Shown: positions 2,129-59,904 of the stretch, piece by piece
Numbering within the stretch: the stretch's first letter is position 1
Layout of the letters: every line of letters begins with the position of its first letter
IMG/VR virus record: IMGVR_UViG_3300045988_112752
Reading direction: 5' to 3' (one strand)
Source of the DNA: a virus
Length of the DNA: 64,000 nucleotides
Notes under the pieces: model-generated
Told to the model about the DNA's origin: nothing
Seen by the model: only the letters and a program-made list of their open reading frames with translations
Databases searched by the model: none
Program-made: the position numbers and the translations under genes

Positions 2129-2273
2129 AATTGTGTTGTTTACGATTCCTCTCCAAAGTCTATTTTAAGCTGCTGAAACCTCTCGGCATACCATTGTCTG
2201 TATGACTTGCCCGAAATCCACCAGTCGTAGATGTTCTCCGCTATTTCGTTTTCTTGCCCCCCCCGTCAAGCGG

Positions 2274-3419
2274 TCAGAGGAGAGGCGACCTGAAAACCCG
2301 CGTTCGGCAAGTTTCCATATTCCTCGGTTCTGTCTCCCAGTTGCTGTTTGTCCGCATCCACTGCTTGCAGATGCGGAACGTCGGCATTGCTGCTCCTCGT
2401 ATTCTTGAGATTTTCCCCCCCCCAGTCGAATTGTTTGTAGAATCGAGACCTGTCCAATGTTCGGGGGCGGGATGCTTGATGTAGCCGCCTGCATCCTGAG
2501 CAATCCTCTGACGTTTCAGAGAGGCATCCAGTCTTTGCGGATGTTCCACCAGATATATTCTTTTTTTGAATACCTCCCCGTTTCGGATGGCCTTGATAGC
2601 CTTAATCCATCCTCGCTTGACATGTGGATAACGCTCGTTTTCAAGCATTTTTTGCTTGTGCGAACTCATAGGGCAACCTATGCAGCCTATGCGGTGCCAG
2701 CCTTCGTCGTAGAGTGAGCAATGCGGAACTTTCACAACATCATTAAGAAATTCCCATACATCCTGCTCCGTCCAGTAGATGATGGGCGATATTAGCAAAC
2801 TCTCTTTGCCGTGGATGCAGCCCAGCGTCTGTTCCTCGTCGGCATTGGTGATATTCACTCCGTCCGCCTTCGACTTCCGCTTCATGCGTTTAGCCTTCTG
2901 CTCCTGTCGGTATTCTTCCAGTCCGTCGAGGTCGCCGCTAAACTTTCGGTTGTTTATCTCCACCTCGTTGCGTTTGGCTCGGCGCGAACTCTCTGCCTTG
3001 CGTATGCCGATAAGCGTAACCTTGCCAGCACCTGCCGTTTCCTTATATTCGGCACAACACCAACGTATACGCATCGTTGGCAATATCTGTTTCTCGATGG
3101 CGTGCTGGAAGATTGATTTGCCGGGCTTTATCAGTTCCACTTCGGGATAGTTCTTCTTCACGAAGCGTATCACTTCTGGAGGATCAACACTCGTAAGGTT
3201 CATGTGACCCTTGAACTTCACTCCTGCCAACTGCGTCATGTGGTAAAGAGTCTGCGAGTCCTTGCCACCGCTAAATGCCAAGTAATAACCCTGCTCGGCA
3301 TCATAGTTGAGCGCAATCTTTTCCGCCTTTTGCAACAGCTCCACCGAGTGAAGCATTTTTTTGCGCAATCGTGCCGAAGCGCGGTCTAATGCTTCGGCAA
3401 GCGTAATGTCTATATTCAT
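2274..3419 (-). CDS. PAPS reductase / PP-loop ATP pyrophosphatase family protein; 3' end unclear
   Basis: ORF track 381 aa. Has YLAFSGGKDSQ (SGGxDS PP-loop) and a CIGCP cysteine motif. The last ~60 aa look non-protein-like and the region 2140-2500 switches frame at two homopolymer tracts (see findings). Confidence 0.75.
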   Translation of the reverse strand: MNIDITLAEALDRASARLRKKMLHSVELLQKAEKIALNYDAEQGYYLAFSGGKDSQTLYHMTQLAGVKFKGHMNLTSVDPPEVIRFVKKNYPEVELIKPGKSIFQHAIEKQILPTMRIRWCCAEYKETAGAGKVTLIGIRKAESSRRAKRNEVEINNRKFSGDLDGLEEYRQEQKAKRMKRKSKADGVNITNADEEQTLGCIHGKESLLISPIIYWTEQDVWEFLNDVVKVPHCSLYDEGWHRIGCIGCPMSSHKQKMLENERYPHVKRGWIKAIKAIRNGEVFKKRIYLVEHPQRLDASLKRQRIAQDAGGYIKHPAPEHWTGLDSTNNSTGGGKISRIRGAAMPTFRICKQWMRTNSNWETEPRNMETCRTRVFRSPLL

Positions 3420-3439
3420 GTCTTTATAAATTGATTAAG

Positions 3440-4204
3440 CTAACCATTGGATTCTTCACTCTTCGTTCTTCCCTCTTCACTTTCTGTCTCCATATACTCG
3501 AAGTAGTCCGGTTCTTCCGGCTTCTCACCACTCAGCAACTCCTCATCCTCAATCTCCTGAAGGTCTTTTGTGGTAAGACCATACTTGCGGGCCATGCGCT
3601 GCTTCTCCTCGTCGGTGTAGTTGATGCGGTCGCGCTTGACGATGCTCACGTCCTGCGTGATGGCAATGCGACTCATATCCGGCATCTCGTCCGTAGCGTC
3701 GCGCTCCTCGTCGAAATCCTTGTAGATTTTGCCCAGTGCCTCCATGCCCTTAGCCACGGCACGGTCATTGTTCTGCTGCTTGCCCGTGCGGATAAGCCAT
3801 TCTGCCGAACCGAGAAACATAGCCTTGTGGCGCGGACTCTCATCCGTCTGGAAGAAACGGATAAGATGGTTGCACACCAGCACGTCGTTGTTTAGCTCCG
3901 TAACGGTGCGCGGACAGATGTTGCCCTCGTCGTCAAGCGTAATTTTCAGCGCGATCACCATTGCCTGCGCATCCTTGTTGCCTTGCGCAGCCTGATTGAA
4001 GAATAACTCATAGTCGCGTCGGGCGATATTGCGGCACACGGTGCGCGGATCAATGTCCTTGTTCTGCACCCACCTCTTGTAAAATTCAGAGCACACCTGC
4101 ATACGGTAGCGTTGCTCCAGTTTAGGGAACGCCGTCTCAATGGATGTGCCGTAGCTCAACCACTTGTCGATACGGGCGAGCGTGTTTTGTGTAAGTCCTG
4201 ACAT
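3440..4204 (-). CDS. Hypothetical protein with acidic C-terminus; first gene of the packaging operon, candidate small terminase by position only
   Basis: ORF track 254 aa; same strand and tight spacing with the PAPS-reductase-like gene, MTase and terL. No motif recognised. Confidence 0.5.
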   Translation of the reverse strand: MSGLTQNTLARIDKWLSYGTSIETAFPKLEQRYRMQVCSEFYKRWVQNKDIDPRTVCRNIARRDYELFFNQAAQGNKDAQAMVIALKITLDDEGNICPRTVTELNNDVLVCNHLIRFFQTDESPRHKAMFLGSAEWLIRTGKQQNNDRAVAKGMEALGKIYKDFDEERDATDEMPDMSRIAITQDVSIVKRDRINYTDEEKQRMARKYGLTTKDLQEIEDEELLSGEKPEEPDYFEYMETESEEGRTKSEESNG

Positions 4205-4382
4205 GCTGTCATTAGTTTATTGTTGTACTTTTCTTGCTCGTAAAATTACGATATTCTCCGTCCTCCATACGGACATCCTTAATCTCCCCGTACCCCACCA
4301 TGTCCGCTGTGCGTAGCGCCTTATAGCTATCTTTGTGGTATAAAAACAAGGATAACAACAACACAAAAACAACAACACAACT

Positions 4383-4898
4383 ATGCAGAACCCTTTTTAT
4401 GTTTCGCGAGCCATTGCCGCAGTGCTCGGCTTGCTCTGGTGCCACATTGAGCCATCAATCAATTTTATCACCGTGTGCTTCTTCGCCCTAATCATCGACT
4501 GCTACACAGCATGGCGTTGCAATCGTCGCATCTACGAAAAATATCGCGAAGAGATAAAGCGCAATCCCAAGTGTAAAATGGACGGTAAGCTGCGCTCAAA
4601 GAAGATGGCAAAGATGGTGTGGACTTTCTCCGTGCTTATCATGTGCATCTGCCTCGCCTCGTATCTCGACCGCAACATCCTCGGCTACATGAACACCCAC
4701 CTCGCCAACCAGCTCACTGCCATGTACTGCCTCGTTCAGTTCGTCAGCATACTCGAAAATGAGAGCACCTGCAACGGTGCTGCCTGGGCAAGAGTGCTTC
4801 AAAAGATTGTGGCAGACAAGACCGAGCGACACTTCAACGTGAAGCTGAAGGAGCTGATGAAGGAGAAAGAGGAATCGGCGGAGTCGGCAAAAGAATAA
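4383..4898 (+). CDS. Holin-family membrane protein (phage_holin_4_1-like)
   Basis: ORF track 171 aa. Hydrophobic segments, ALIIDCYTA and VQFVSILENESTCNG resemble the DxxTG and SIxEN signatures of this holin family. Confidence 0.6.
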   Translation: MQNPFYVSRAIAAVLGLLWCHIEPSINFITVCFFALIIDCYTAWRCNRRIYEKYREEIKRNPKCKMDGKLRSKKMAKMVWTFSVLIMCICLASYLDRNILGYMNTHLANQLTAMYCLVQFVSILENESTCNGAAWARVLQKIVADKTERHFNVKLKELMKEKEESAESAKE

Positions 4899-4922
4899 AC
4901 AATAACGAATTTTAGTAGCATT

Positions 4923-5513
4923 ATGACAATAAGCAATATTCTTGAGCATTGGGCTTCCATCTACAAGCCCCTGTCTCACCGCCCCGAGAGCGAACGCCTC
5001 GAAGACCAGAGCTTCTTTCGCATTCGCTACATCGACCTTGAGAACATTTTCTCGCGCAACGCCAACATCATCCACTCGCCGTGTATGCTCCAGAGTGTGA
5101 TCACTACGGGCGAACTCGTCGATGCTCACAAGGCAGTAGTATCTCACCAAGTGTGGTTTCTCTCTAAGCTGAAGGATGCACCTCAGAACCTCGGTCGTTA
5201 TAGTGGCACACAACTCGAACGGGCTACAAGCGACCTTGTGGAATATTGCGAGCAACTTGTGTCATGGCTCTTTGAGGTGAAGCGTACAGGTGTTTGCCCC
5301 GTCACCAAGCGCAGTTTTGCTGACGATGCGCAACTCCTTGCCGAACTTCGCAGCATTGACCCCGAATCGGTGTCGTTCGGAGTTATGCCCGACATCTATG
5401 CTAACCAGTGGCTCATAGCTGGAGTAGACTGGAAGAGTCTCAAACCGCTTTACTCTTTTCAATGTGGCATGAACGGGCAGTATATTCTACCCAAGGACAA
5501 CGGTCAAGAATAG
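4923..5513 (+). CDS. Hypothetical structural-module protein
   Basis: ORF track 196 aa; co-directional and tightly spaced upstream of the tape measure gene. Confidence 0.6.
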   Translation: MTISNILEHWASIYKPLSHRPESERLEDQSFFRIRYIDLENIFSRNANIIHSPCMLQSVITTGELVDAHKAVVSHQVWFLSKLKDAPQNLGRYSGTQLERATSDLVEYCEQLVSWLFEVKRTGVCPVTKRSFADDAQLLAELRSIDPESVSFGVMPDIYANQWLIAGVDWKSLKPLYSFQCGMNGQYILPKDNGQE

Positions 5514-28966: not shown

Positions 28967-30148
28967 ATGAAGAACGTAAAGATTTTTGCAAAGACCATCG
29001 AGGCGGAAGCTATGAAACAGATAGAAAACTTAGCAACGAGCGAGGCTTACTGCGACTGCAAGATACGCATTATGCCTGACTGTCATGCGGGTAAGGGATG
29101 CACAATAGGTACGGTAATTCAGACTGCCGGCAAGGTTGTACCTAATACCGTAGGCGTGGATATAGGCTGTGGTATGTTGGTATTCAAGTTCGCTGAGAAG
29201 GATATAAACCTTTCGCTTCTCGACCGAATCATCAATGAGTCGGTGCCGAGCGGATTTGACGTTCACGAAAAGTCCAAGCTAAAAGATTGTAGTTCGCTTC
29301 CGCTTACGTCACATCTTTTGCTCGATTTGCACAAAAGGACACAAGGTTGCTTCGATCTCGACTATATCGGACGCTCGCTTGGCACCCTCGGTGGCGGCAA
29401 TCACTTCATCGAGCTGGACGAGGACGAGCAGGGCTGTAAGTATCTTGTGATACATTCGGGCAGTCGCAATCTCGGAGTTAAGGTGTGCAACTTTTTCCAA
29501 CACTTAGCCAAAAAGAATGTGAATCGATACGAGGAGCGCAAGCGCATCATCGAAGACTTAAAGAAGTATGGCTTAGAGAGGGAGATTAACAATATGTTGC
29601 GTCGTTTTGACACCGTGCCTCCCGGTCTCGCCTATCTTGAGGGAGAAGACCTCAATGCCTACAATTTCGCTGCGAACGTCTGTCAGTATTTTGCCGACGA
29701 CAACAGATGGAATATAGCAATGCCTATAATCCATGGGCTTCAATTATCGGTTGTGGATTTCTTTACCACCAGGCATAACTATTTCGACATACACTCAGGC
29801 ATCATCCGAAAAGGAGCCGTGAGTGCCGAAAATGGCGAACAGCTTATCATCCCACTTAATATGCGCGATGGTTCGTTGATATGTCGCGGCAAGGGCAACG
29901 ACGACTGGCTTCAGTCGGCTCCGCACGGTGCAGGTAGACTAATGTCGCGCTCGGCGGCCAAGAAGCAGCTCAGCATGAAGGAATACCGACAGCAGATGCA
30001 CGACATTTACTCCACATCGGTATGCGAGTCAACAATCGACGAGTCGCCAATGGCGTACAAGCCCGCCGAAGAGATAGAATCGCTTATAGGCGACACTGTG
30101 GACGTGGTTAGGAGAATCAAACCGATATACAACTTCAAAGCGAAATAA
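28967..30148 (+). CDS. rtcB: RtcB-family 3'-phosphate/5'-OH RNA ligase
   Basis: ORF track 393 aa. MPDCHAGKGCTIGTV, GVDIGCGM, GTLGGGNHFIELD, HSGSRNLG and APHGAGR match the conserved RtcB metal/GMP-His blocks in order. Confidence 0.85.
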   Translation: MKNVKIFAKTIEAEAMKQIENLATSEAYCDCKIRIMPDCHAGKGCTIGTVIQTAGKVVPNTVGVDIGCGMLVFKFAEKDINLSLLDRIINESVPSGFDVHEKSKLKDCSSLPLTSHLLLDLHKRTQGCFDLDYIGRSLGTLGGGNHFIELDEDEQGCKYLVIHSGSRNLGVKVCNFFQHLAKKNVNRYEERKRIIEDLKKYGLEREINNMLRRFDTVPPGLAYLEGEDLNAYNFAANVCQYFADDNRWNIAMPIIHGLQLSVVDFFTTRHNYFDIHSGIIRKGAVSAENGEQLIIPLNMRDGSLICRGKGNDDWLQSAPHGAGRLMSRSAAKKQLSMKEYRQQMHDIYSTSVCESTIDESPMAYKPAEEIESLIGDTVDVVRRIKPIYNFKAK

Positions 30149-31695: not shown

Positions 31696-32268
31696 ATGAA
31701 AGCAAAAAACAAGGTATTGTTTGACAGATACAACCTTTACTTTAGAGGTGTTTGGAAGAAACCCCACAACTATCCCTCGCTGTTAGATATGGTAGAGCGT
31801 CGTATAGGATGGAGGGTTGACGTACTTCGTTGTTGTAATAACTGGGAAGATATTGTTTCTACTGACCGTAAAGTGCTTTCCAACTTTTGTAATCCGAAGG
31901 TGTTCCACTTTCCGAAAAAGTGTTGTGTGTCTCCTAAAGTTTTCGACCCGAGGTATTCGATGAAAAGTGAATACCATATAGTAAGGAAGAAAAACAATCG
32001 GTATAAGGTTGTTCGGAACAAACCTAAAAGACGTTCTATTGGGAGAACCTTGGTGGTAGATACCAAGAGGGGTTATGTCCGTAATATTGGCGATAAGGTG
32101 TGGTATCATCCCGATTATATGGATTTCGGTTGTTATACCTGCGCTGATTACGGAACATGCTTTAATAATGGTCGCCATGACAAGAGTTTTTGTGCGGTGG
32201 CTGCAAAGTGCGGAATCGGTCGCTGCAACACATGGCAGGAAGTAAGAGAAAACAATGATCAACATTAA
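31696..32268 (+). CDS. Hypothetical Cys-rich basic protein
   Basis: ORF track 190 aa. Confidence 0.55.
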   Translation: MKAKNKVLFDRYNLYFRGVWKKPHNYPSLLDMVERRIGWRVDVLRCCNNWEDIVSTDRKVLSNFCNPKVFHFPKKCCVSPKVFDPRYSMKSEYHIVRKKNNRYKVVRNKPKRRSIGRTLVVDTKRGYVRNIGDKVWYHPDYMDFGCYTCADYGTCFNNGRHDKSFCAVAAKCGIGRCNTWQEVRENNDQH

Positions 32269-32388
32269 GATTTCGGTGCATCCAGTTAGCCATCGGCTCG
32301 AATGGCGAGGATGGGGGGTAACTTCTCACCTGCCCTACGAGCCACCGACTACAAATGCCCTCACTGTATAATGATAGAATATGATTAA
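32255..32388 (+). pseudogene. C5-MTase TRD-like mini-ORF a, split by a frameshift at a G6 tract
   Basis: Own translation: MINIKISVHPVSHRLEWRGWG (frame 1) and GNFSPALRATDYKCPHCIMIEYD-stop (frame 2). One extra G in 32313-32318 joins them. Confidence 0.55.
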
Positions 32389-32515
32389 GCAACACCCATT
32401 CGATGATTTTCATCAGCGCATACATTGGAACGGCAACTCCATCGGAACCGTTATCCAACAATGGGGCAATCCTGCGCCGAGACACGGATGGCGAATAATG
32501 ATTGAATATGAATAA
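32381..32515 (+). CDS. C5-MTase TRD-like mini-ORF b (44 aa)
   Basis: Own translation: MIKQHPFDDFHQRIHWNGNSIGTVIQQWGNPAPRHGWRIMIEYE-stop. The ATG is embedded in tATGAtTAA of ORF a. Confidence 0.5.
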   Translation: MIKQHPFDDFHQRIHWNGNSIGTVIQQWGNPAPRHGWRIMIEYE

Positions 32516-32834
32516 CCCTCACACGCCCCGCTACAAGCGTGGCACCGTCACCAAGGACGGCAAGCTGTATGGCCGCTATCCCGACGGTTCGCTCTACCGC
32601 ATCTACTCCACCTCTGACCGACCCTTCCTTCAGATTGTGAACCGCAAGGGAGAGACGTTCCTTCGCATACGCCAAGCCACCGAGCAGGGCTATACCGACT
32701 GCCCTTGCCCTGGAGCCGCCGACCTCAGCTATCCCTCCTCGGCTCTAAGGCGCAGCCGAACGGTTGGGGGGGGTAAGATAGTGAACGCTCTGACCGCAGC
32801 AAGCGGAGGATTGTGTGTTTTTGTAGAATTATAA
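32508..32834 (+). CDS. C5-MTase TRD-like mini-ORF c (108 aa)
   Basis: Track ORF 32502 (TTG); ATG at 32508 lies inside tATGAaTAA. IRQATEQGYTDCPCPGAADLSYPSSALRRSRTVGGGKIVNALTAASGGLCVFVEL resembles the xATKxGY...RRGRV...TLT type of TRD. In-frame G8 tract at 32766-32773. Confidence 0.6.
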   Translation: MNNPHTPRYKRGTVTKDGKLYGRYPDGSLYRIYSTSDRPFLQIVNRKGETFLRIRQATEQGYTDCPCPGAADLSYPSSALRRSRTVGGGKIVNALTAASGGLCVFVEL

Positions 32835-32849
32835 AAGGAGAAATAAATT

Positions 32850-33152
32850 ATGAGTTACAATACAGAAAAGATAATCGTAAAGAACGAGGACACGGGAAAG
32901 GAAGAGGACGTAAAGTTGTTCTATTCTACCATTACTGATAATGTAGGTATCACTTGCGGCGAGCAGGAGGTTTTTCTTACTCAAGACCAGTTTAAGGCTT
33001 TGTCGTGTCTTATGTTTAGATGTTTTTACACAAGAGATATGCTGAACGAAGCGCGAATGGCTAATGATTGGGACGATCACCCTTACACCGTCTTTTCTTC
33101 TCACGATGAAACCACGTGGACCAAAGAGGTTGAAGAAGATAGATATGACTAA
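32850..33152 (+). CDS. Hypothetical protein d (100 aa) embedded in the TRD array
   Basis: ORF track. AAGGAG upstream. No clear MTase motif, but it ends ...EDRYD-stop with the same tATGAcTAA overlap into ORF e. Confidence 0.5.
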   Translation: MSYNTEKIIVKNEDTGKEEDVKLFYSTITDNVGITCGEQEVFLTQDQFKALSCLMFRCFYTRDMLNEARMANDWDDHPYTVFSSHDETTWTKEVEEDRYD

Positions 33153-33276
33153 TCACGACCTCTACCAATATCCTCGTGGTAACAACGACGGAGGTAGATT
33201 AGGCACTGACGTTTGCCCGACCGTGACAATTAACGCATGGCAGCAAAATGTATTTCTGATTGAAGAATATGAATAA
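33145..33276 (+). CDS. C5-MTase TRD-like mini-ORF e (43 aa)
   Basis: Own translation: MTNHDLYQYPRGNNDGGRLGTDVCPTVTINAWQQNVFLIEEYE-TAA. Same frame as the core ORF, which starts 4 codons after the stop. Confidence 0.55.
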   Translation: MTNHDLYQYPRGNNDGGRLGTDVCPTVTINAWQQNVFLIEEYE

Positions 33277-33288
33277 AGCAAAGACAAT

Positions 33289-34593
33289 ATGATTACAAAA
33301 CTCAACTTCACTGACCGCACCATCAAGAGCTACGCTATCCGCAAGCTCACACCCAAAGAGTGTTTCCGACTGATGGGCGTTCGCGACAACGTAATCGGCA
33401 CCATGCAGAGCAGCAATGCCCAGGCAGCCGAGCGACTGCCCGACTGGAAAGGCAAGGGCAAGCCGGAAGACATGGCAGTGTCTGCGTCGCAGCAGTACAA
33501 GCAGGCAGGCAACTCAATCGTGGTGGACGTGTTGGCCCACATCTATGAGCAGTTGTTCTATCCGAAGCCGAATTTGCGTAAATTCAGACAACTCTCACTC
33601 TTTACCGACACCGGCGACTATTTGCCCGACATGCCGAAGAACTTAGACGATTCTGCTGAGGAAAAGATATTCCTTACCACGTTCTCCGGCTACGACTCGC
33701 AGCTCATGGCAGCCGACGTGCTGAAGGAGTGGCATCCCAACTTCCGATGGACGTGCAAGGGATGGAGCGACATTGACAAATACGCCTGTCTGATGCACAA
33801 CCTCGTATTTCCGCAGTTTGCCGACTGCGCACTTGGTGACATCACCAAGATTGACTGGCACGCCGTGAAACGCTCGCTCTATGGACGCGAGGTTGACCTC
33901 TTCACCTATTCCTCGCCCTGTCAGGACATCTCGCAAGCCGGCAAGCAGATGGGGCTTCAGGAGGGCAGCGATACCCGAAGCGCCCTCCTTTGGCGAGTGG
34001 CAGATGCCGTGGAGGTGTTGCACCCCAAATATCTCTTGCAGGAGAACGTGGCGGCATTGGTTAGCCAGAAGTTCATGCCCGACTTCCAGAAGTGGCTCGA
34101 CAAGCTCTCCTCACTCGGATACGTCTCACGTTGGGCTCGCCTGAACGCCAAAAACTACGGTGTGCCGCAGAACCGCGACCGTGTGTTCTGCATCTCCATG
34201 CGCCAGGACGTAGCCTTCGACTATCAGTTTCCCGAACCCTTCGAGCTGCGCACCCGACTGGAGGACGTGTTGGAAGAAGAGGTAGCCGACCGCTATTTCC
34301 TCAAGGACGATGCCGTGAGCAAGTTCCTCAAAGCAAACGACTCCGACAACGCCCTCTTCATGCAGTTCGACCTGCCGTCGACACACGAGGCAGCGATGTT
34401 TCTAAAGACGTGGCTCACGCTACGCATGAACGCTCTCAACGGATGGGAGAGGGAGCTGGACGAACTGAACTATTGTATAGAGAACGAGCGAGACGTATTG
34501 AACAGCGAGTTCGGATGCTTCAGTAAATATCGTGAATTTCCTTGCGAAGGTTTCGAGGAACTGTTCAATGAGAATATGGAGAGGAAGAAATGA
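33289..34593 (+). CDS. C5-cytosine DNA methyltransferase core with permuted motif order (IX-X, linker, I-VIII, extra C-terminal region)
   Basis: ORF track 434 aa. IRKLTPKECFRLMGV (IX), QQYKQAGNSIVVDVL (X), then TTFSGYDSQ (I), SSPCQDIS (IV), LLQENV (VI), QNRDRVF (VIII). Confidence 0.8.
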   Translation: MITKLNFTDRTIKSYAIRKLTPKECFRLMGVRDNVIGTMQSSNAQAAERLPDWKGKGKPEDMAVSASQQYKQAGNSIVVDVLAHIYEQLFYPKPNLRKFRQLSLFTDTGDYLPDMPKNLDDSAEEKIFLTTFSGYDSQLMAADVLKEWHPNFRWTCKGWSDIDKYACLMHNLVFPQFADCALGDITKIDWHAVKRSLYGREVDLFTYSSPCQDISQAGKQMGLQEGSDTRSALLWRVADAVEVLHPKYLLQENVAALVSQKFMPDFQKWLDKLSSLGYVSRWARLNAKNYGVPQNRDRVFCISMRQDVAFDYQFPEPFELRTRLEDVLEEEVADRYFLKDDAVSKFLKANDSDNALFMQFDLPSTHEAAMFLKTWLTLRMNALNGWERELDELNYCIENERDVLNSEFGCFSKYREFPCEGFEELFNENMERKK

Positions 34594-34736
34594 CACTCCC
34601 TTTCAACACCGAAACCGACGGCACATCACGCACCATCAAAGCCAACTACTTCAAGAAGGGCGCATACGATGTACTTGATGTCTCAGCCCAAGGAGCAAAC
34701 TTCAAAGCCACTGGCGCAATCGTGATATATGAATAA
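34590..34736 (+). CDS. C5-MTase TRD-like mini-ORF g (48 aa)
   Basis: Own translation: MTLPFNTETDGTSRTIKANYFKKGAYDVLDVSAQGANFKATGAIVIYE-stop. ATGA overlap with the core stop. Confidence 0.55.
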   Translation: MTLPFNTETDGTSRTIKANYFKKGAYDVLDVSAQGANFKATGAIVIYE

Positions 34737-34881
34737 CAACCCTCGCCCCATCATCCTCGGCTCTTACAGCCCCTCGCAGAACGGCATCGTCGTTTCGCCC
34801 CACGGTATAGCCTTGTGCATAGCCGGGGGAGGTAAGGGTCACGATGTGGATAAACCAAAAATACTGATAACGTATGATTGA
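34729..34881 (+). CDS. C5-MTase TRD-like mini-ORF h (50 aa), HhaI-type TRD
   Basis: Own translation: MNNNPRPIILGSYSPSQNGIVVSPHGIALCIAGGGKGHDVDKPKILITYD-stop. Compare M.HhaI QGERIYSTRGIAITLSAYGGG. Confidence 0.6.
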   Translation: MNNNPRPIILGSYSPSQNGIVVSPHGIALCIAGGGKGHDVDKPKILITYD

Positions 34882-35056
34882 CCGTTCCGTCCTCGTCCAC
34901 TACCGCACCGAAGAGGCGAAAGTCTACCGCCGCGAGCATGGTGACCGTGGAGGGTGCAAATACCAAGACAAGCTGCATCGTCCCAGTCCGTGGCCGTGGA
35001 GCAATTCGATAACAACAGTAACCAAAGACAACCTCCTATGCGTAACATTTATCTGA
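34874..35056 (+). CDS. C5-MTase TRD-like mini-ORF i (60 aa)
   Basis: ORF track: ...RTEEAKVYRREHGDRGG...SNSITTVTKDNLLCVTFI. It lacks the YE ending; that strand (NIYLIHE) sits in the next frame. Confidence 0.5.
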   Translation: MIDRSVLVHYRTEEAKVYRREHGDRGGCKYQDKLHRPSPWPWSNSITTVTKDNLLCVTFI

Positions 35057-35214
35057 TACACGAAGCTCGAACTGAACACGCAAAGGCTGTGCGTCGCAGA
35101 ACCGGCACTAACGATTTTCGCGATAAGGAATGGCATCTGCGGTCAGGACACATGATGCAATGTATAGGAACGTTTCTCACTACAGACAATCTGATAGCAA
35201 TATGCTACGAATAA
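35038..35214 (+). CDS. C5-MTase TRD-like mini-ORF j (58 aa)
   Basis: In frame with track ORF 34954: MRNIYLIHEARTEHAKAVRRRTGTNDFRDKEWHLRSGHMMQCIGTFLTTDNLIAICYE-stop. Confidence 0.5.
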   Translation: MRNIYLIHEARTEHAKAVRRRTGTNDFRDKEWHLRSGHMMQCIGTFLTTDNLIAICYE

Positions 35215-35354
35215 GAATAGCAGCCTTCCGTGGCCGCCCTTTGAATGGTGACGATTGCCCCAACATTCAGCGCATGGAGATAAACGCGCAGGGTACAACC
35301 AACACGCTTACGTCAGTAGGCAAGGATAATATGGCATATATAGAGTATGAATAA
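35202..35354 (+). CDS. C5-MTase TRD-like mini-ORF k (50 aa)
   Basis: In frame with track ORF 35130: MLRIRIAAFRGRPLNGDDCPNIQRMEINAQGTTNTLTSVGKDNMAYIEYE-stop (RGR...QRxE...TNTLTSVxKDN type). Confidence 0.6.
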   Translation: MLRIRIAAFRGRPLNGDDCPNIQRMEINAQGTTNTLTSVGKDNMAYIEYE

Positions 35355-35498
35355 TCAAATTCCATTCGTGCAACGCCTCTCTCGCCTCTGCCCACGTCGG
35401 GGGGGTACTCCACCGCCCTGTCCGCACGCTACGACGGATGGGCAGGACTCTACGACGAGCACGGACAGCACACCATTGTATTGATAGAATATGACTGA
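35347..35498 (+). pseudogene. C5-MTase TRD-like mini-ORF l, split by a frameshift at a G7 tract
   Basis: Own translation: MNNQIPFVQRLSRLCPRRGG (frame 1) and YSTALSARYDGWAGLYDEHGQHTIVLIEYD-stop (frame 2). One extra G in 35399-35405 joins them. Confidence 0.55.
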
Positions 35499-35670
35499 CA
35501 AGTATTACATTGGCTGGGTACGCAGCGGCAAGGACGGCAAGGGCCTCGTAAAGAGCCGACCGCGCAAGTAGATAGCCAATGCCGTGACAACCTCACCGCC
35601 CGGCAGCTTTGCCGACCCTCGCGACGGACTTGGCAACACCACACCGCATATAGTGTATAAATATGAGTAA
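35491..35670 (+). pseudogene. C5-MTase TRD-like mini-ORF m with an in-frame TAG
   Basis: Own translation: MTDKYYIGWVRSGKDGKGLVKSRPRK-TAG(35569)-IANAVTTSPPGSFADPRDGLGNTTPHIVYKYE-stop. Confidence 0.5.
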
Positions 35671-35702: not shown

Positions 35703-36791
35703 ATGAAATCAGAAGAAATCAACATTGCCGACATTCTGCGCAATGAGCCAGCCGGAACAAGGCTGTATTCACCAGTTTGCGGAGCGTTGGAGCTTATAAA
35801 CGTGACAGATGGTGTCATTTGGTGTATGGAGCCTGGTTCGTCTTTGACTCCACATCGGATAAGTTTCACCTCCTATGGTAAACTTATCAATTATGGAGGA
35901 TGGAAGTTTGAAGGAGAGTGCCTGTTGTTCCCCGCAAAGGAACTGTGCGACTGGAACATCTATTGTTGGCGTGAGGGTGACATACTGGTAAGCAATGACG
36001 AGCGCAATGTGGTGGTGTTCGATAAGTTCACCCGGTCCGACAGAAGCCGTTTTGCCGCCCACTTCTGTATTGAGAAAGCGAATACAGAAGACAGAGAGTA
36101 TTACCGCAGAGCGGAGGAAATTCCGACAAGGGATTATTTTAACCGTTATTCTCTTGCGTTGAGAAAGGAAATTTTTGGGCAGATAGAAGAGCGTTTCTGT
36201 GCGCCCATCAACCGCTACACCTATAAGTTGCACCCGAATTTCGATCAAGGCGATTTCGTGGTTATGGAGGTGTCATACACCGACTCGCTTGATGTGCATA
36301 AGTATGTGTGCATATTCGACTGCTACGACTTGCAGCATAACCGTATGCACTGTTTCGCAGATCTTAACACTGGAGAAAGCGACACACCTTGCATAAATCA
36401 GATCCATGATTTGCGCGACAGCAATGATAGCGTGAAGAATATCACCTTGCGTTTCGCCAATGGCGACGAGAAAGCTATGCTTGTGAATGCTTTGTACGAA
36501 GAAGGCAAGCGGTGGGACGGCAAGGCGAAGGCGATTGTTAATGAAAAACGGCAGATAGCAGACAACGAGTATGAAGAGGAATCGCACAAGTTTGAGCCGT
36601 TCGACAAGGTATTGGTAAAAGGACCGAGCGAAAATGACACTTGGTTCCCGGGCTTTTTCTTTCAGGAATACAAAGAGTCAAAGGACTATCGGTATGCCAC
36701 AATTTGTGGGAAGTATTATACTTATTGTATTCCCTACAACGACAAGACCAAGCATCTCGTCGGTACGACACTTCCGTATGACGAAGACTGA
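35703..36791 (+). CDS. Hypothetical protein
   Basis: ORF track 362 aa. Confidence 0.65.
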   Translation: MKSEEINIADILRNEPAGTRLYSPVCGALELINVTDGVIWCMEPGSSLTPHRISFTSYGKLINYGGWKFEGECLLFPAKELCDWNIYCWREGDILVSNDERNVVVFDKFTRSDRSRFAAHFCIEKANTEDREYYRRAEEIPTRDYFNRYSLALRKEIFGQIEERFCAPINRYTYKLHPNFDQGDFVVMEVSYTDSLDVHKYVCIFDCYDLQHNRMHCFADLNTGESDTPCINQIHDLRDSNDSVKNITLRFANGDEKAMLVNALYEEGKRWDGKAKAIVNEKRQIADNEYEEESHKFEPFDKVLVKGPSENDTWFPGFFFQEYKESKDYRYATICGKYYTYCIPYNDKTKHLVGTTLPYDED

Positions 36792-36962
36792 CACCACTCG
36801 CACCCTCGTAGTCGGCATGATGCAGACTACGCCATTCACTCACATGTTTGACGTACTGCGCAGAGTGTATTCTACCCAAGGCTTATGTCCGTCTTTGCTT
36901 GTACCTACGGGTGGTAATCAAGAGATAAAGGTATTGATAGAACTATAAAAAATATAAAGACA

Positions 36963-59486: not shown

Positions 59487-59904
59487 ATATATAGTGTTTT
59501 GTGTTGTTTATAACGCAAAGTTAAGATATTTTGCTTTTATGCGCAGGACATTGTGCGTATTTCGTCGTTTTTGTGTAAGTTTGGTCTATTGATTAAGTGT
59601 TTTGGTATAGGTTGATGTTGTTTTAACGTACTAAACATGAGCGTTTTAATCTGTTTGTTCCCCAAAATAATCGTTGTAATTTGGGTTTTCTCGAAAGTGG
59701 CAGCACGTAGGTTGCTACCCATAAAACCATGTAAATTTTTAAGAATTAGAGCAAAGGTGTTGTTTTGAACGGCTCAACCTCACAAGCGACCAACCACCGC
59801 ACTGAGACCCCTTGGCTTAGTGTCGGTTAGTAAAATCTTATTATATATGCTAACGAGTATAAAGGGGGGGGCTGTGGTGGTCTGTGGTGGTCGTGAATGT
59901 GCCT

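What the first reader, a model, noticed from the sequence alone, without database searches (positions are those of the whole stretch)
33145..34593. The only catalytic C5-MTase ORF has circularly permuted motif order and is separated from an upstream TRD by one in-frame TAA
Residues ~17-82 of ORF 33289-34593 carry IRKLTPKECFRLMGV (motif IX) and QQYKQAGNSIVVDVL (motif X). After a ~35-aa linker come TTFSGYDSQ (I), SSPCQDIS (IV, catalytic Cys), LLQENV (VI) and QNRDRVF (VIII). About 110 residues with no motif I recognise follow, ending ...NENMERKK with an ATGA overlap into TRD g. The canonical order is I-VIII, TRD, IX-X. Permuted single-chain enzymes (M.BssHII type) and two-chain enzymes (M.AquI, M.EcoHK31I) are known but rare. 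TRD e (...VFLIEEYE) lies in the same frame and is separated only by TAA (33274-33276) plus 4 codons from MITKLNFTDRTIKSYAIRKLTP. That is the normal TRD-to-motif-IX connection. An internal ATG at 33631 (MPKNLDD...) would give a conventional N-terminal half. The locus looks like a duplication-and-truncation route to permutation, with TRDs left on both sides.
Basis: partly seen in the sequence, partly recalled or inferred. Interest (0 to 1): 0.7.

Follow-up and report, generated by a model that had tools for sequence, protein, structure and literature searches.

The report
Split multi-target DNA methylase of gut phages
A widespread group of human-gut phages carries a cytosine DNA methylase whose catalytic chain is circularly rearranged and has no DNA-reading domain of its own, while 8-16 such reading domains are encoded next to it as separate mini-genes, an arrangement not described before that probably lets one enzyme protect the phage against many restriction systems.

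Summary
ORF 33289-34593 is a C5-cytosine methyltransferase with motif order IX-X-linker-I-IV-VI-VIII, followed by an ~85-aa helical tail. It has no target-recognition domain (TRD).

The permuted ORF is real. It is full length in more than 120 protein clusters and more than 80 viral contigs (68-97% identity, omega 0.16).

The linker is a fusion seam. Canonical enzymes end at core residue 105 (QLSLF) and start at residues 110-125. This supports an origin from two tandem genes.

The in-frame TAA before the ORF is chance: 11 of 42 related junctions are in frame. The internal ATG at 33631 is not conserved.

The larger finding is the flanks. Thirteen mini-ORFs (28-108 aa) each match one TRD module of single-chain multi-TRD methylases. 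In their own frame omega is 0.05-0.43, against 0.95-3.3 in the other frames. Their start and stop codons overlap. They come and go as cassettes, on either side of the core. Most of their frameshifts sit in length-variable poly-G tracts.

Best reading: a fragmented multispecific methylase with trans-acting TRD subunits. That last step is inferred, and an engineered equivalent was inactive.

The parts
32255..32388 (+). TRD mini-ORF T1, disrupted in this genome. ATG 32255, MINIKISVHPVSHRLEWRGW, then a G6 tract at 32313-32318, then the TRD frame GGNFSPALRATDYKCPHCIMIEYD-stop. G7 would be in frame.
   Evidence: 64% identical to P0152 residues 337-369, just before motif IX. Intact with ATG in 25 loci and frameshifted in 22.
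32381..32515 (+). TRD mini-ORF T2 (44 aa, ends IMIEYE). 8-nt start/stop overlap on both sides.
   Evidence: omega 0.15. 57% identical to P0167 404-438, just before motif IX.
32508..32834 (+). TRD mini-ORF T3 (108 aa, long TRD ending CVFVEL). Contains an in-frame G8 tract at 32766.
   Evidence: (omega 0.13). 48% identical to P0186 481-534, between motifs VIII and IX.
32850..33152 (+). Non-TRD ORF (100 aa) lying inside the array. Function unknown.
   Evidence: no family hit. Present in about 27 loci, omega 0.18.
33145..33276 (+). Its TAA stop at 33274-33276 happens to be in frame with the core.
   Evidence: omega 0.17. 44% identical to P0139 259-301, directly before motif IX at 305. In-frame relation not conserved.
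33289..34593 (+). TRD-less, circularly permuted C5-MTase catalytic chain (434 aa).
33337..33534 (+). Motif IX (IRKLTPKECFRLMGV, residues 17-31) through motif X (QQYKQAGNSIVVDVL, residues 68-82).
33604..33657 (+). Linker and fusion seam (residues 106 to about 123). It follows QLSLF, where canonical enzymes end, and precedes IFLTTFSGYDSQ, where they start. It holds the non-conserved ATG at 33631.
   Evidence: low pLDDT at 100-112. A homing endonuclease is inserted at this position in L090, L112 and L121.
33676..34188 (+). Motifs I (TTFSGYDSQ), IV (SSPCQDIS, catalytic Cys211 at 33919-33921), VI (LLQENV) and VIII (QNRDRVF).
34381..34590 (+). C-terminal helical domain (residues about 365-434). No family match. 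Proposed docking or adaptor element.
   Evidence: helices 365-382, 390-414, 422-433; pLDDT 64-81.
34590..34736 (+). ATGA overlap with the core stop.
   Evidence: (omega 0.21).
34729..34881 (+). TRD mini-ORF T8 (50 aa, ends ILITYD).
   Evidence: 75 of 82 loci; omega 0.10; 0.08 against 1.9 and 3.3 in the other frames.
34874..35056 (+). TRD mini-ORF T9 (60 aa, ITTVTKDNLLCVTFI).
   Evidence: omega 0.12. 51% identical to P0216 306-356.
35038..35214 (+). TRD mini-ORF T10 (58 aa, ends LIAICYE).
   Evidence: omega 0.15; 34 of 34 intact with ATG.
35202..35354 (+). TRD mini-ORF T11 (50 aa, TNTLTSVGKDNMAYIEYE).
   Evidence: omega 0.22. 49% identical to P0193 287-329, before motif IX at 339.
35347..35498 (+). 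TRD mini-ORF T12, disrupted in this genome. ATG 35347, a G7 tract at 35399-35405 (G5 or G8 would be in frame), then GGYSTALSARYDGWAGLYDEHGQHTIVLIEYD-stop in another frame.
   Evidence: tract length 4-9 among loci.
35491..35670 (+). TRD mini-ORF T13, with an in-frame TAG at 35569-35571 where relatives have CAG (Gln).
   Evidence: The window uses the standard genetic code, so this is a nonsense allele.
36778..36948 (+). TRD mini-ORF T14 (56 aa, RVYSTQGLCPSLLVPTGGNQEIKVLIEL). It lies beyond a 362-aa non-TRD ORF (35703-36791).
   Evidence: (omega 0.27).

Best explanation
The locus encodes a fragmented multispecific C5-cytosine DNA methyltransferase.

The catalytic chain (33289-34593) contains everything except the DNA-reading part. 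Motifs IX-X are joined through a fusion seam to motifs I-VIII, followed by a novel helical C-terminal domain.

The reading parts are thirteen separate mini-proteins in this genome, ten intact and three disrupted. Each equals one TRD module of ordinary multi-TRD enzymes. All share a hydrophobic-I-E-Y-(D/E) carboxy-terminal tail. They are translated from tightly overlapping, coupled start and stop codons.

Shown here:
- the permuted order of motifs;
- the fusion-seam origin of the linker;
- the homology of each mini-ORF to a TRD module;
- frame-specific purifying selection on each mini-ORF;
- cassette-like gain and loss on either side of the core;
- near-obligate co-occurrence of the mini-ORFs with the core.

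Inferred:
- Each mini-protein docks non-covalently between the two retained stubs of the variable region. These stubs are the N-terminal MITKLNFTDRTIKSY and residues about 348-364 (NALFMQFDLP). Both are low-confidence in the monomer model. The C-terminal helical domain may help docking.
- Docking rebuilds the small domain, so that one core methylates as many motifs as there are intact TRD genes. This would protect phage DNA from many host Type II systems.
- Poly-G tracts in Gly-Gly codons of many TRD genes let individual specificities switch off and on without inactivating the rest. A covalent tandem-TRD enzyme could not do this.
For: - Permuted order.
- Conservation of the whole ORF: more than 120 clusters at 83-94% identity with 100% coverage. 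80 IMG/VR loci at 68-97% identity. Core omega 0.16.
- Fold: AF2 model with mean pLDDT 76.5. Best PDB matches are M.MpeI and M.HhaI at E about 1e-12.
- Fusion seam: canonical C-termini end at core residue 105 in 14 of 16 sequences, and canonical N-termini begin at residues 110-125.
- Mini-ORFs are TRD modules: 40-67% identity to segments lying between motifs VIII and IX of single-chain enzymes, and to the tandem TRDs of the Dulem virus 40 beta chain.
- Mini-ORFs are translated: omega 0.05-0.27. In a frame control, omega is 0.08-0.43 in the annotated frame and 0.95-3.3 in the other two. Most have ATG at the aligned first codon.
- Junctions: 370 of 544 have 8-nt or 4-nt start/stop overlaps. Where no ORF follows, TAT becomes TAC and the ATG is lost.
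- Action in trans is plausible: families D, F and E lie upstream of the core in some phages and downstream in others. Clade L064-L073 has all its TRDs downstream.
- Co-occurrence: 77 of the 79 loci found with T8 alone carry the core. One of the two exceptions is cut by a contig end.
- Tolerance of a multi-chain state: an HNH homing endonuclease splits the core in its linker in L090, L112 and L121.
- Shared C-terminal tail across unrelated TRD families.
- Poly-G: 77 of 95 TRD frameshifts sit at G6-G10 tracts in 12 or more families. Three of the six G/C runs of 6 or more in the window lie in the 4.7-kb array.
Against: - No experiment or complex model shows that a free TRD binds the core.
- The exact engineered equivalent was inactive in E. 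coli: M.MpeI and M.SssI split into [IX-X-I-VIII] plus [TRD alone] (PMC5944983).
- Mini-proteins of 28-60 aa may not fold alone.
- About 10% of TRD ORFs across genomes are disrupted, and several core genes carry nonsense mutations or frameshifts. The system is therefore dispensable and partly decaying in some phages.
- Poly-G length differences come from metagenome assemblies. Within-population switching was not examined.
- The selection estimates use tblastn-selected alignments.
Confidence: 0.55

Rival explanations
1. Programmed recoding joins TRDs covalently to the core or to each other. This could be readthrough of the TAA at 33274 or frameshifting at the TATGAATAA junctions. The real products would then be ordinary TRD-IX-X-I-VIII or tandem-TRD chains.
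For: In the window, TRD e, the TAA and the core are in one frame, and this is colinear with a canonical enzyme. More distant relatives (P0131, P0271, P0272, P0168, P0217) do have TRDs fused in front of IX-X. A conserved junction sequence exists.
Against: The frame relation to the core is at chance level: 11 in frame against 31 out of frame. The spacer varies in length. TRD-TRD junctions need different shifts: overlaps of 8, 4, 13, 14 and 19 nt, and gaps. No slippery site fits. The ATG inside the junction is kept only where an ORF follows. A stop is always present between the TRD and the core in this clade.
Confidence: 0.07
2. The mini-ORFs are a library of silent TRD cassettes. Recombination at the repeated junctions moves them into an expression site, as in pilin or hsdS shuffling. 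They would not be independently acting proteins.
For: 15-28-nt junction repeats flank the cassettes. Cassette content and position differ between phages.
Against: None of about 160 loci shows an expression site with a TRD fused to the core. The cassettes keep their own ATG codons and overlapping stops. No recombinase or inverted-repeat system is evident. All cassettes point the same way.
Confidence: 0.08
3. The mini-proteins are functional but do not serve the core. For example, they could act as decoys or inhibitors of host methyltransferases or restriction enzymes. The core would then act alone or be inactive.
For: Selection on the mini-ORFs is shown but their partner is not. The engineered core-plus-TRD split was inactive. 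One locus (L118) keeps its TRDs without the core.
Against: The mini-ORFs co-occur with the core in 77 of 79 loci, within 0-1 kb for most. Both chains keep the stubs and tails that flank TRD modules in covalent enzymes. A C5 core without a small domain has no known way to bind and flip its target (established for M.HhaI and M.HaeIII; own knowledge).
Confidence: 0.15
4. The locus is debris of a decayed multispecific methyltransferase gene, with stops and frameshifts accumulated between former tandem TRDs.
For: Three of thirteen TRD ORFs in the window are disrupted. Some relatives have a broken core.
Against: There is frame-specific purifying selection on every module and on the core across 68-97% divergent genomes. 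Start codons and the junction architecture are conserved in 544 junctions. The same split layout is found in more than 150 contigs.
Confidence: 0.04

Closest known systems
Natural circularly permuted C5-MTases (M.BssHII, M.Alw26I, M2.Eco31I, M.Esp3I, M2.BsaI; 27 found in REBASE; PMC5944983)
   Same: Motifs IX-X precede I-VIII in one chain, and the break point lies in the variable region. More distant relatives of the window protein (P0131, P0271, P0272) have exactly this TRD-IX-X-I-VIII layout.
   Different: Those enzymes keep their TRD in the chain, mostly at the N-terminus. The window chain has no TRD at either end and carries an unrelated helical C-terminal domain.
Multispecific phage C5-MTases (M.SPRI, M.Phi3TI, M.Rho11sI, M.H2I; own knowledge), and the multi-TRD gut enzymes found here (e.g. 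P0273, Dulem virus 40 beta chain)
   Same: Several short TRD modules, each homologous to a window mini-ORF, serve one catalytic core. Module boundaries carry the same hydrophobic-V/I-E tail.
   Different: There the TRDs are contiguous in one polypeptide between motifs VIII and IX. Here each is its own gene, and they lie on both sides of the core.
Two-chain C5-MTases M.AquI and M.EcoHK31I (PMC3404938)
   Same: An active enzyme assembled from separately translated pieces, with the split in or near the variable region.
   Different: M.AquI splits into I-VIII plus half a TRD, and half a TRD plus IX-X. M.EcoHK31I detaches only motif IX. Neither has a free TRD or multiple alternative partners.
Engineered cp361M.MpeI and cp357M.SssI split into [IX-X-I-VIII] + [TRD] (PMC5944983)
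   Same: Same topology as the proposed core-plus-TRD pair.
   Different: The engineered pairs were inactive. The natural system has extra elements: a C-terminal helical domain, an N-terminal stub and IEY(D/E) tails.
Type I R-M specificity subunits (HsdS) and phase-variable methyltransferases (own knowledge)
   Same: Works like them in logic. Specificity is supplied by a separate, exchangeable, sometimes phase-variable gene product.
   Different: No sequence or fold relationship. HsdS serves N6-adenine methyltransferases.

Membership tests
C5-cytosine DNA methyltransferase (Pfam PF00145) | AdoMet-binding motif I and catalytic motifs IV (PC), VI (ENV) and VIII (QxRxR) | tested here: met
   Pfam E=4e-49. 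Alignment to M.HhaI and M.MpeI. Invariant F132, P210, C211, E252, N253, V254, Q294, R296, R298 across 44 homologues. Fold match.
C5-cytosine DNA methyltransferase (Pfam PF00145) | Motifs IX and X present | tested here: met
   Residues 17-31 and 68-82, but located N-terminal to motif I.
C5-cytosine DNA methyltransferase (Pfam PF00145) | A target-recognition domain in the same chain between motifs VIII and IX | tested here: not met
   No TRD-like segment in residues 1-16 or 330-434. The C-terminal part is a helical bundle.
C5-cytosine DNA methyltransferase (Pfam PF00145) | Transfers methyl to cytosine C5 at a defined motif | not testable with these tools
   Needs expression and methylome analysis.
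Natural circularly permuted C5-MTases (M.BssHII type) | Motif X precedes motif I, with the permutation point in the variable region | tested here: met
   Definition taken from PMC5944983.
Natural circularly permuted C5-MTases (M.BssHII type) | TRD retained within the permuted chain | tested here: not met
   The TRD is fused only in distant relatives P0131, P0271 and P0272.
Multispecific (SPR-type) C5-MTases | Multiple TRD modules serving one catalytic core | tested here: inconclusive
   Thirteen modules homologous to TRDs are present next to the only core. That they serve the core is inferred.
Multispecific (SPR-type) C5-MTases | TRDs contiguous in one polypeptide between motifs VIII and IX | tested here: not met
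   Each has its own ATG and stop, in differing frames.
Two-chain C5-MTases (M.AquI type) | Motifs I-VIII and IX-X on different polypeptides | tested here: not met
   Both blocks are in one ORF in the window. The condition is met only in the variants L090, L112 and L121, which are split by an HNH gene.

The most novel reading that the evidence does not exclude
Free-standing TRD mini-proteins act as interchangeable specificity subunits for a TRD-less, permuted C5-methyltransferase core. This would be an HsdS-like division of labour never seen in C5 enzymes. Poly-G tracts would make each specificity individually phase-variable, giving gut phage populations a combinatorial, switchable methylome.
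Probability: 0.4. Interest if true: 0.85.

Novelty: new variant of a known kind. Interest (0 to 1): 0.7.

Why it matters
If the TRD mini-proteins work in trans, several things follow.

- Sequence recognition in C5 methyltransferases could be fully detached from catalysis. Protein engineers tried this with M.MpeI and M.SssI and failed.
- The natural solution (tails, stubs, helical domain) could guide the design of programmable split methyltransferases.
- It would explain how abundant, probably Prevotella-associated, gut phages evade many restriction systems with one enzyme.
- It would provide more than 20 ready-made TRD families whose motifs can be read out one gene at a time.
- It would add a possible phase-variable layer to phage epigenetics.

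Even without trans action, the locus documents all intermediate stages of methyltransferase permutation in one related set of proteins: canonical, two-chain, permuted with the TRD fused, and permuted without a TRD.

Tried and rejected
- First AF2 run with a shallow alignment: too poor to use, pLDDT 53.8. It was replaced by an alignment supplemented with canonical fragments.
- Foldseek cannot align across the permutation, so TM-scores are modest.
- Megablast of the region against 50,697 phage records: no match.
- tblastn of T3 against the same collection: no match.
- Stop-codon reassignment as an explanation for the TAA, or for the TAG in T13: rejected. The standard code gives 85% coverage of the window by stop-to-stop stretches of at least 120 codons, counting both strands and including spurious ones. 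All three stop codons are in use, and the only tRNA in the window is tRNA-Met.
- Literature searches for free TRD subunits or crAss-type multispecific methylases: nothing found.
- RtcB-mediated RNA joining of the pieces: considered only because an RtcB gene lies 3 kb upstream. There is no evidence for it.
- L174 (Clostridia MAG): turned out to be an ordinary two-chain enzyme, not a permuted one.
Full report
**1. The observation**

ORF 33289-34593 (434 aa) is a C5-cytosine DNA methyltransferase (Pfam PF00145, E=4e-49, two stretches).

Against solved structures:
- residues 15-49 align with motif IX of M.MpeI and M.HhaI;
- residues 64-86 align with motif X of M.HhaI;
- residues 160-347 align with motifs I/II-VIII.

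The short N-terminal block is significant on its own. It matches phage protein families of the 'TRD+IX-X' type (E down to 1.5e-13). It also matches the C-terminus of the Dulem virus 40 beta chain (E=7e-19).

The TAA at 33274, the four-codon spacer, the ATGA overlap at 34590 and the ATG at 33631 are all as described. No second methyltransferase core exists in the window.

**2. The permuted ORF is real and widespread**

- Full-length homologues (83-94% identity, 100% coverage, 434-462 aa) form more than 120 clusters. They sit on contigs of 80-105 kb, some binned or labelled as Prevotella or Caudoviricetes.
- Eighty IMG/VR loci carry the ORF at 68-97% identity.
- The N-terminus MITK(L/F)(N/D)F is nearly invariant.
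- Core omega is 0.16.
- An AlphaFold2 model built on an alignment that also held fragments of canonical enzymes reaches mean pLDDT 76.5. The catalytic domain is confident. Residues 1-16, 100-112 and 348-364 are low-confidence. Residues 365-433 form a helical bundle.
- The best PDB matches of the model are M.MpeI, M.HhaI and M.HaeIII.

**3. Origin of the permutation**

Canonical relatives end with ...QLSLF, exactly at core residue 105 (14 of 16 sequences). They begin at core residues 110-125. The 'linker' is therefore the seam between the end of one gene and the start of the next. This is the classical tandem-fusion route to circular permutation.

All the intermediate stages occur among the proteins and loci found here:
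- canonical single chains with tandem TRDs (P0273, P0127, P0128);
- two-chain enzymes (Dulem virus 40: I-VIII, then six or more tandem TRDs plus IX-X);
- permuted chains with N-terminal tandem TRDs (P0131, P0271, P0272), which is the M.BssHII-type layout described in PMC5944983;
- the TRD-less permuted chain of the window.

In three loci (L090, L112, L121) an HNH homing-endonuclease gene sits in the seam. It splits the core into IX-X and I-VIII genes.

**4. What does not hold**

- The in-frame TAA is coincidence. Among 57 distinct upstream junctions, 11 are in frame, 31 are out of frame and 15 have no TRD nearby. The spacer length varies.
- One clade has no upstream TRD at all.
- M115 (ATG 33631) is Leu in most relatives.

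**5. The flanks are the main finding**

Thirteen mini-ORFs of 28-108 aa lie in 32255-33276, 34590-35670 and 36778-36948.

- Each is 40-67% identical to a segment lying between motifs VIII and IX of single-chain enzymes, often directly before motif IX. Each is therefore one TRD module.
- They are under purifying selection. Omega is 0.05-0.27 against the window sequence. In a frame control, omega is 0.08-0.43 in the annotated frame and 0.95-3.3 in the other two.
- Most have ATG at the aligned first codon.
- Of 544 consecutive TRD-TRD junctions, 316 overlap by 8 nt (TATGAnTrA: Tyr-Glu/Asp-stop over Met-x) and 54 by 4 nt. The remainder overlap by 13-19 nt or leave small gaps.
- Where no ORF follows, the ATG within the tail is lost, with TAC in place of TAT.
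- This mixture of junction types argues for coupled, independent initiation and against a single recoding mechanism.
- At least 20 TRD families exist in this phage group. Each genome carries about 8-16 of them, in a syntenic but cassette-like order. Families D, F and E occur on either side of the core.
- Unrelated families share a hydrophobic-I-E-Y-(D/E) C-terminus.
- In a search started from T8 alone, 77 of 79 loci also have the core. One exception is cut by a contig end. In the other the core has been replaced.

**6. Mechanism**

The best-supported reading is a fragmented multispecific methyltransferase. One catalytic chain is served by many separately translated TRD subunits.

In covalent multi-TRD enzymes, only the first and last modules are directly tied to motifs VIII and IX. 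Modules must therefore already dock largely through non-covalent contacts (inference).

The core keeps both stubs of the variable region, residues 1-16 and about 348-364. Both are disordered in the monomer model. It also adds a helical domain of unknown origin. These elements and the common TRD tail are the candidate docking surfaces.

This step is not shown. The engineered equivalent, M.MpeI or M.SssI split into [IX-X-I-VIII] plus [TRD], was inactive (PMC5944983). I therefore give the full mechanism a confidence of 0.55.

**7. Poly-G tracts**

- In the window, T1 is shifted at a G6 tract and T12 at a G7 tract. T3 holds an in-frame G8.
- Tract lengths differ among relatives: 6-8 in T1 and 4-9 in T12.
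- Across all loci, 77 of 95 TRD frameshifts coincide with G6-G10 tracts, in at least 12 families.
- Three of the six G/C runs of 6 or more in the 64-kb window lie in the 4.7-kb array.

This is the signature of contingency loci. It suggests a rationale for splitting the TRDs: one specificity can be lost without losing the enzyme. Assembly artefacts and fixed alleles are not excluded.

**8. Novelty**

Circular permutation, multispecificity and two-chain C5 enzymes are each known. A TRD-less permuted core with an array of free TRD genes was not found in the literature searched. It was also not found among 50,697 phage records (no match covers 80% of the query). I class it as a new variant of a known kind, of high interest to restriction-modification specialists and directly testable.

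Noticed in passing
window 32313-32318, 32766-32773, 35399-35405; loci L009-L088: Poly-G tracts, arising from Gly-Gly codons, occur inside many TRD mini-ORFs and vary in length between related phages. They account for 77 of 95 frameshifts. This may be phase variation of individual methylation specificities.
   Followed up: partly
L090 216-773; L112 about 4218-4834; L121 about 4399-5015: In L090 an HNH/NUMOD4 homing-endonuclease gene is inserted exactly in the linker of the core, separating an IX-X ORF from an I-VIII ORF. L112 and L121 show the same split, with about 600 nt between the two halves. The content of that gap was not examined.
   Followed up: partly
L002 (Dulem virus 40, PP511379) 2974-4914: The two genes annotated as methylases are one two-chain multispecific enzyme. 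The alpha chain holds motifs I-VIII. The beta chain holds six or more tandem TRDs plus IX-X and ends in the same QLSLF.
   Followed up: partly
window 35569-35571: There is an in-frame TAG in TRD T13 where relatives have CAG (Gln). The window otherwise uses the standard code, so this looks like a nonsense allele.
   Followed up: yes
window 28967-30148: A phage-encoded RtcB tRNA-splicing/repair ligase (phrog_1075, E=6e-124) lies 3 kb upstream of the array.
   Followed up: no
window 2257-2264, 2415-2423 (minus-strand ORF 2274-3419) and 59864-59871: These are the other long G/C homopolymers of the window. Of the first two, the run at 2415-2423 lies within, and the run at 2257-2264 just 3' of, a PP-loop/PAPS-reductase-like ORF (FSGGKDSQ) whose C-terminal end looks frameshifted. 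The third lies in a stretch with no ORF of 60 aa or more.
   Followed up: no
window 32850-33152 and 35703-36791: Two conserved non-TRD ORFs (100 aa and 362 aa, no family hits) are embedded in the TRD array.
   Followed up: no
L118 5187-6153: One phage has lost the core, and a different ORF now occupies its place. It still carries the downstream TRD mini-ORFs.
   Followed up: partly
L016, L035, L057, L062/L063, L066, L069, L070, L075 (core at 4501): The core gene carries nonsense codons or frameshifts in about 10% of related contigs. Some of the frameshifts are at a C-run in KLTPPEC. The enzyme is therefore dispensable or switchable.
   Followed up: partly
P0048, P0053, P0085-87 (C-termini): Some core variants extend by about 25 aa (GQTPTTSNSGGVSSSPFKLV). 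This looks like a short TRD-like module fused to the C-terminus.
   Followed up: no
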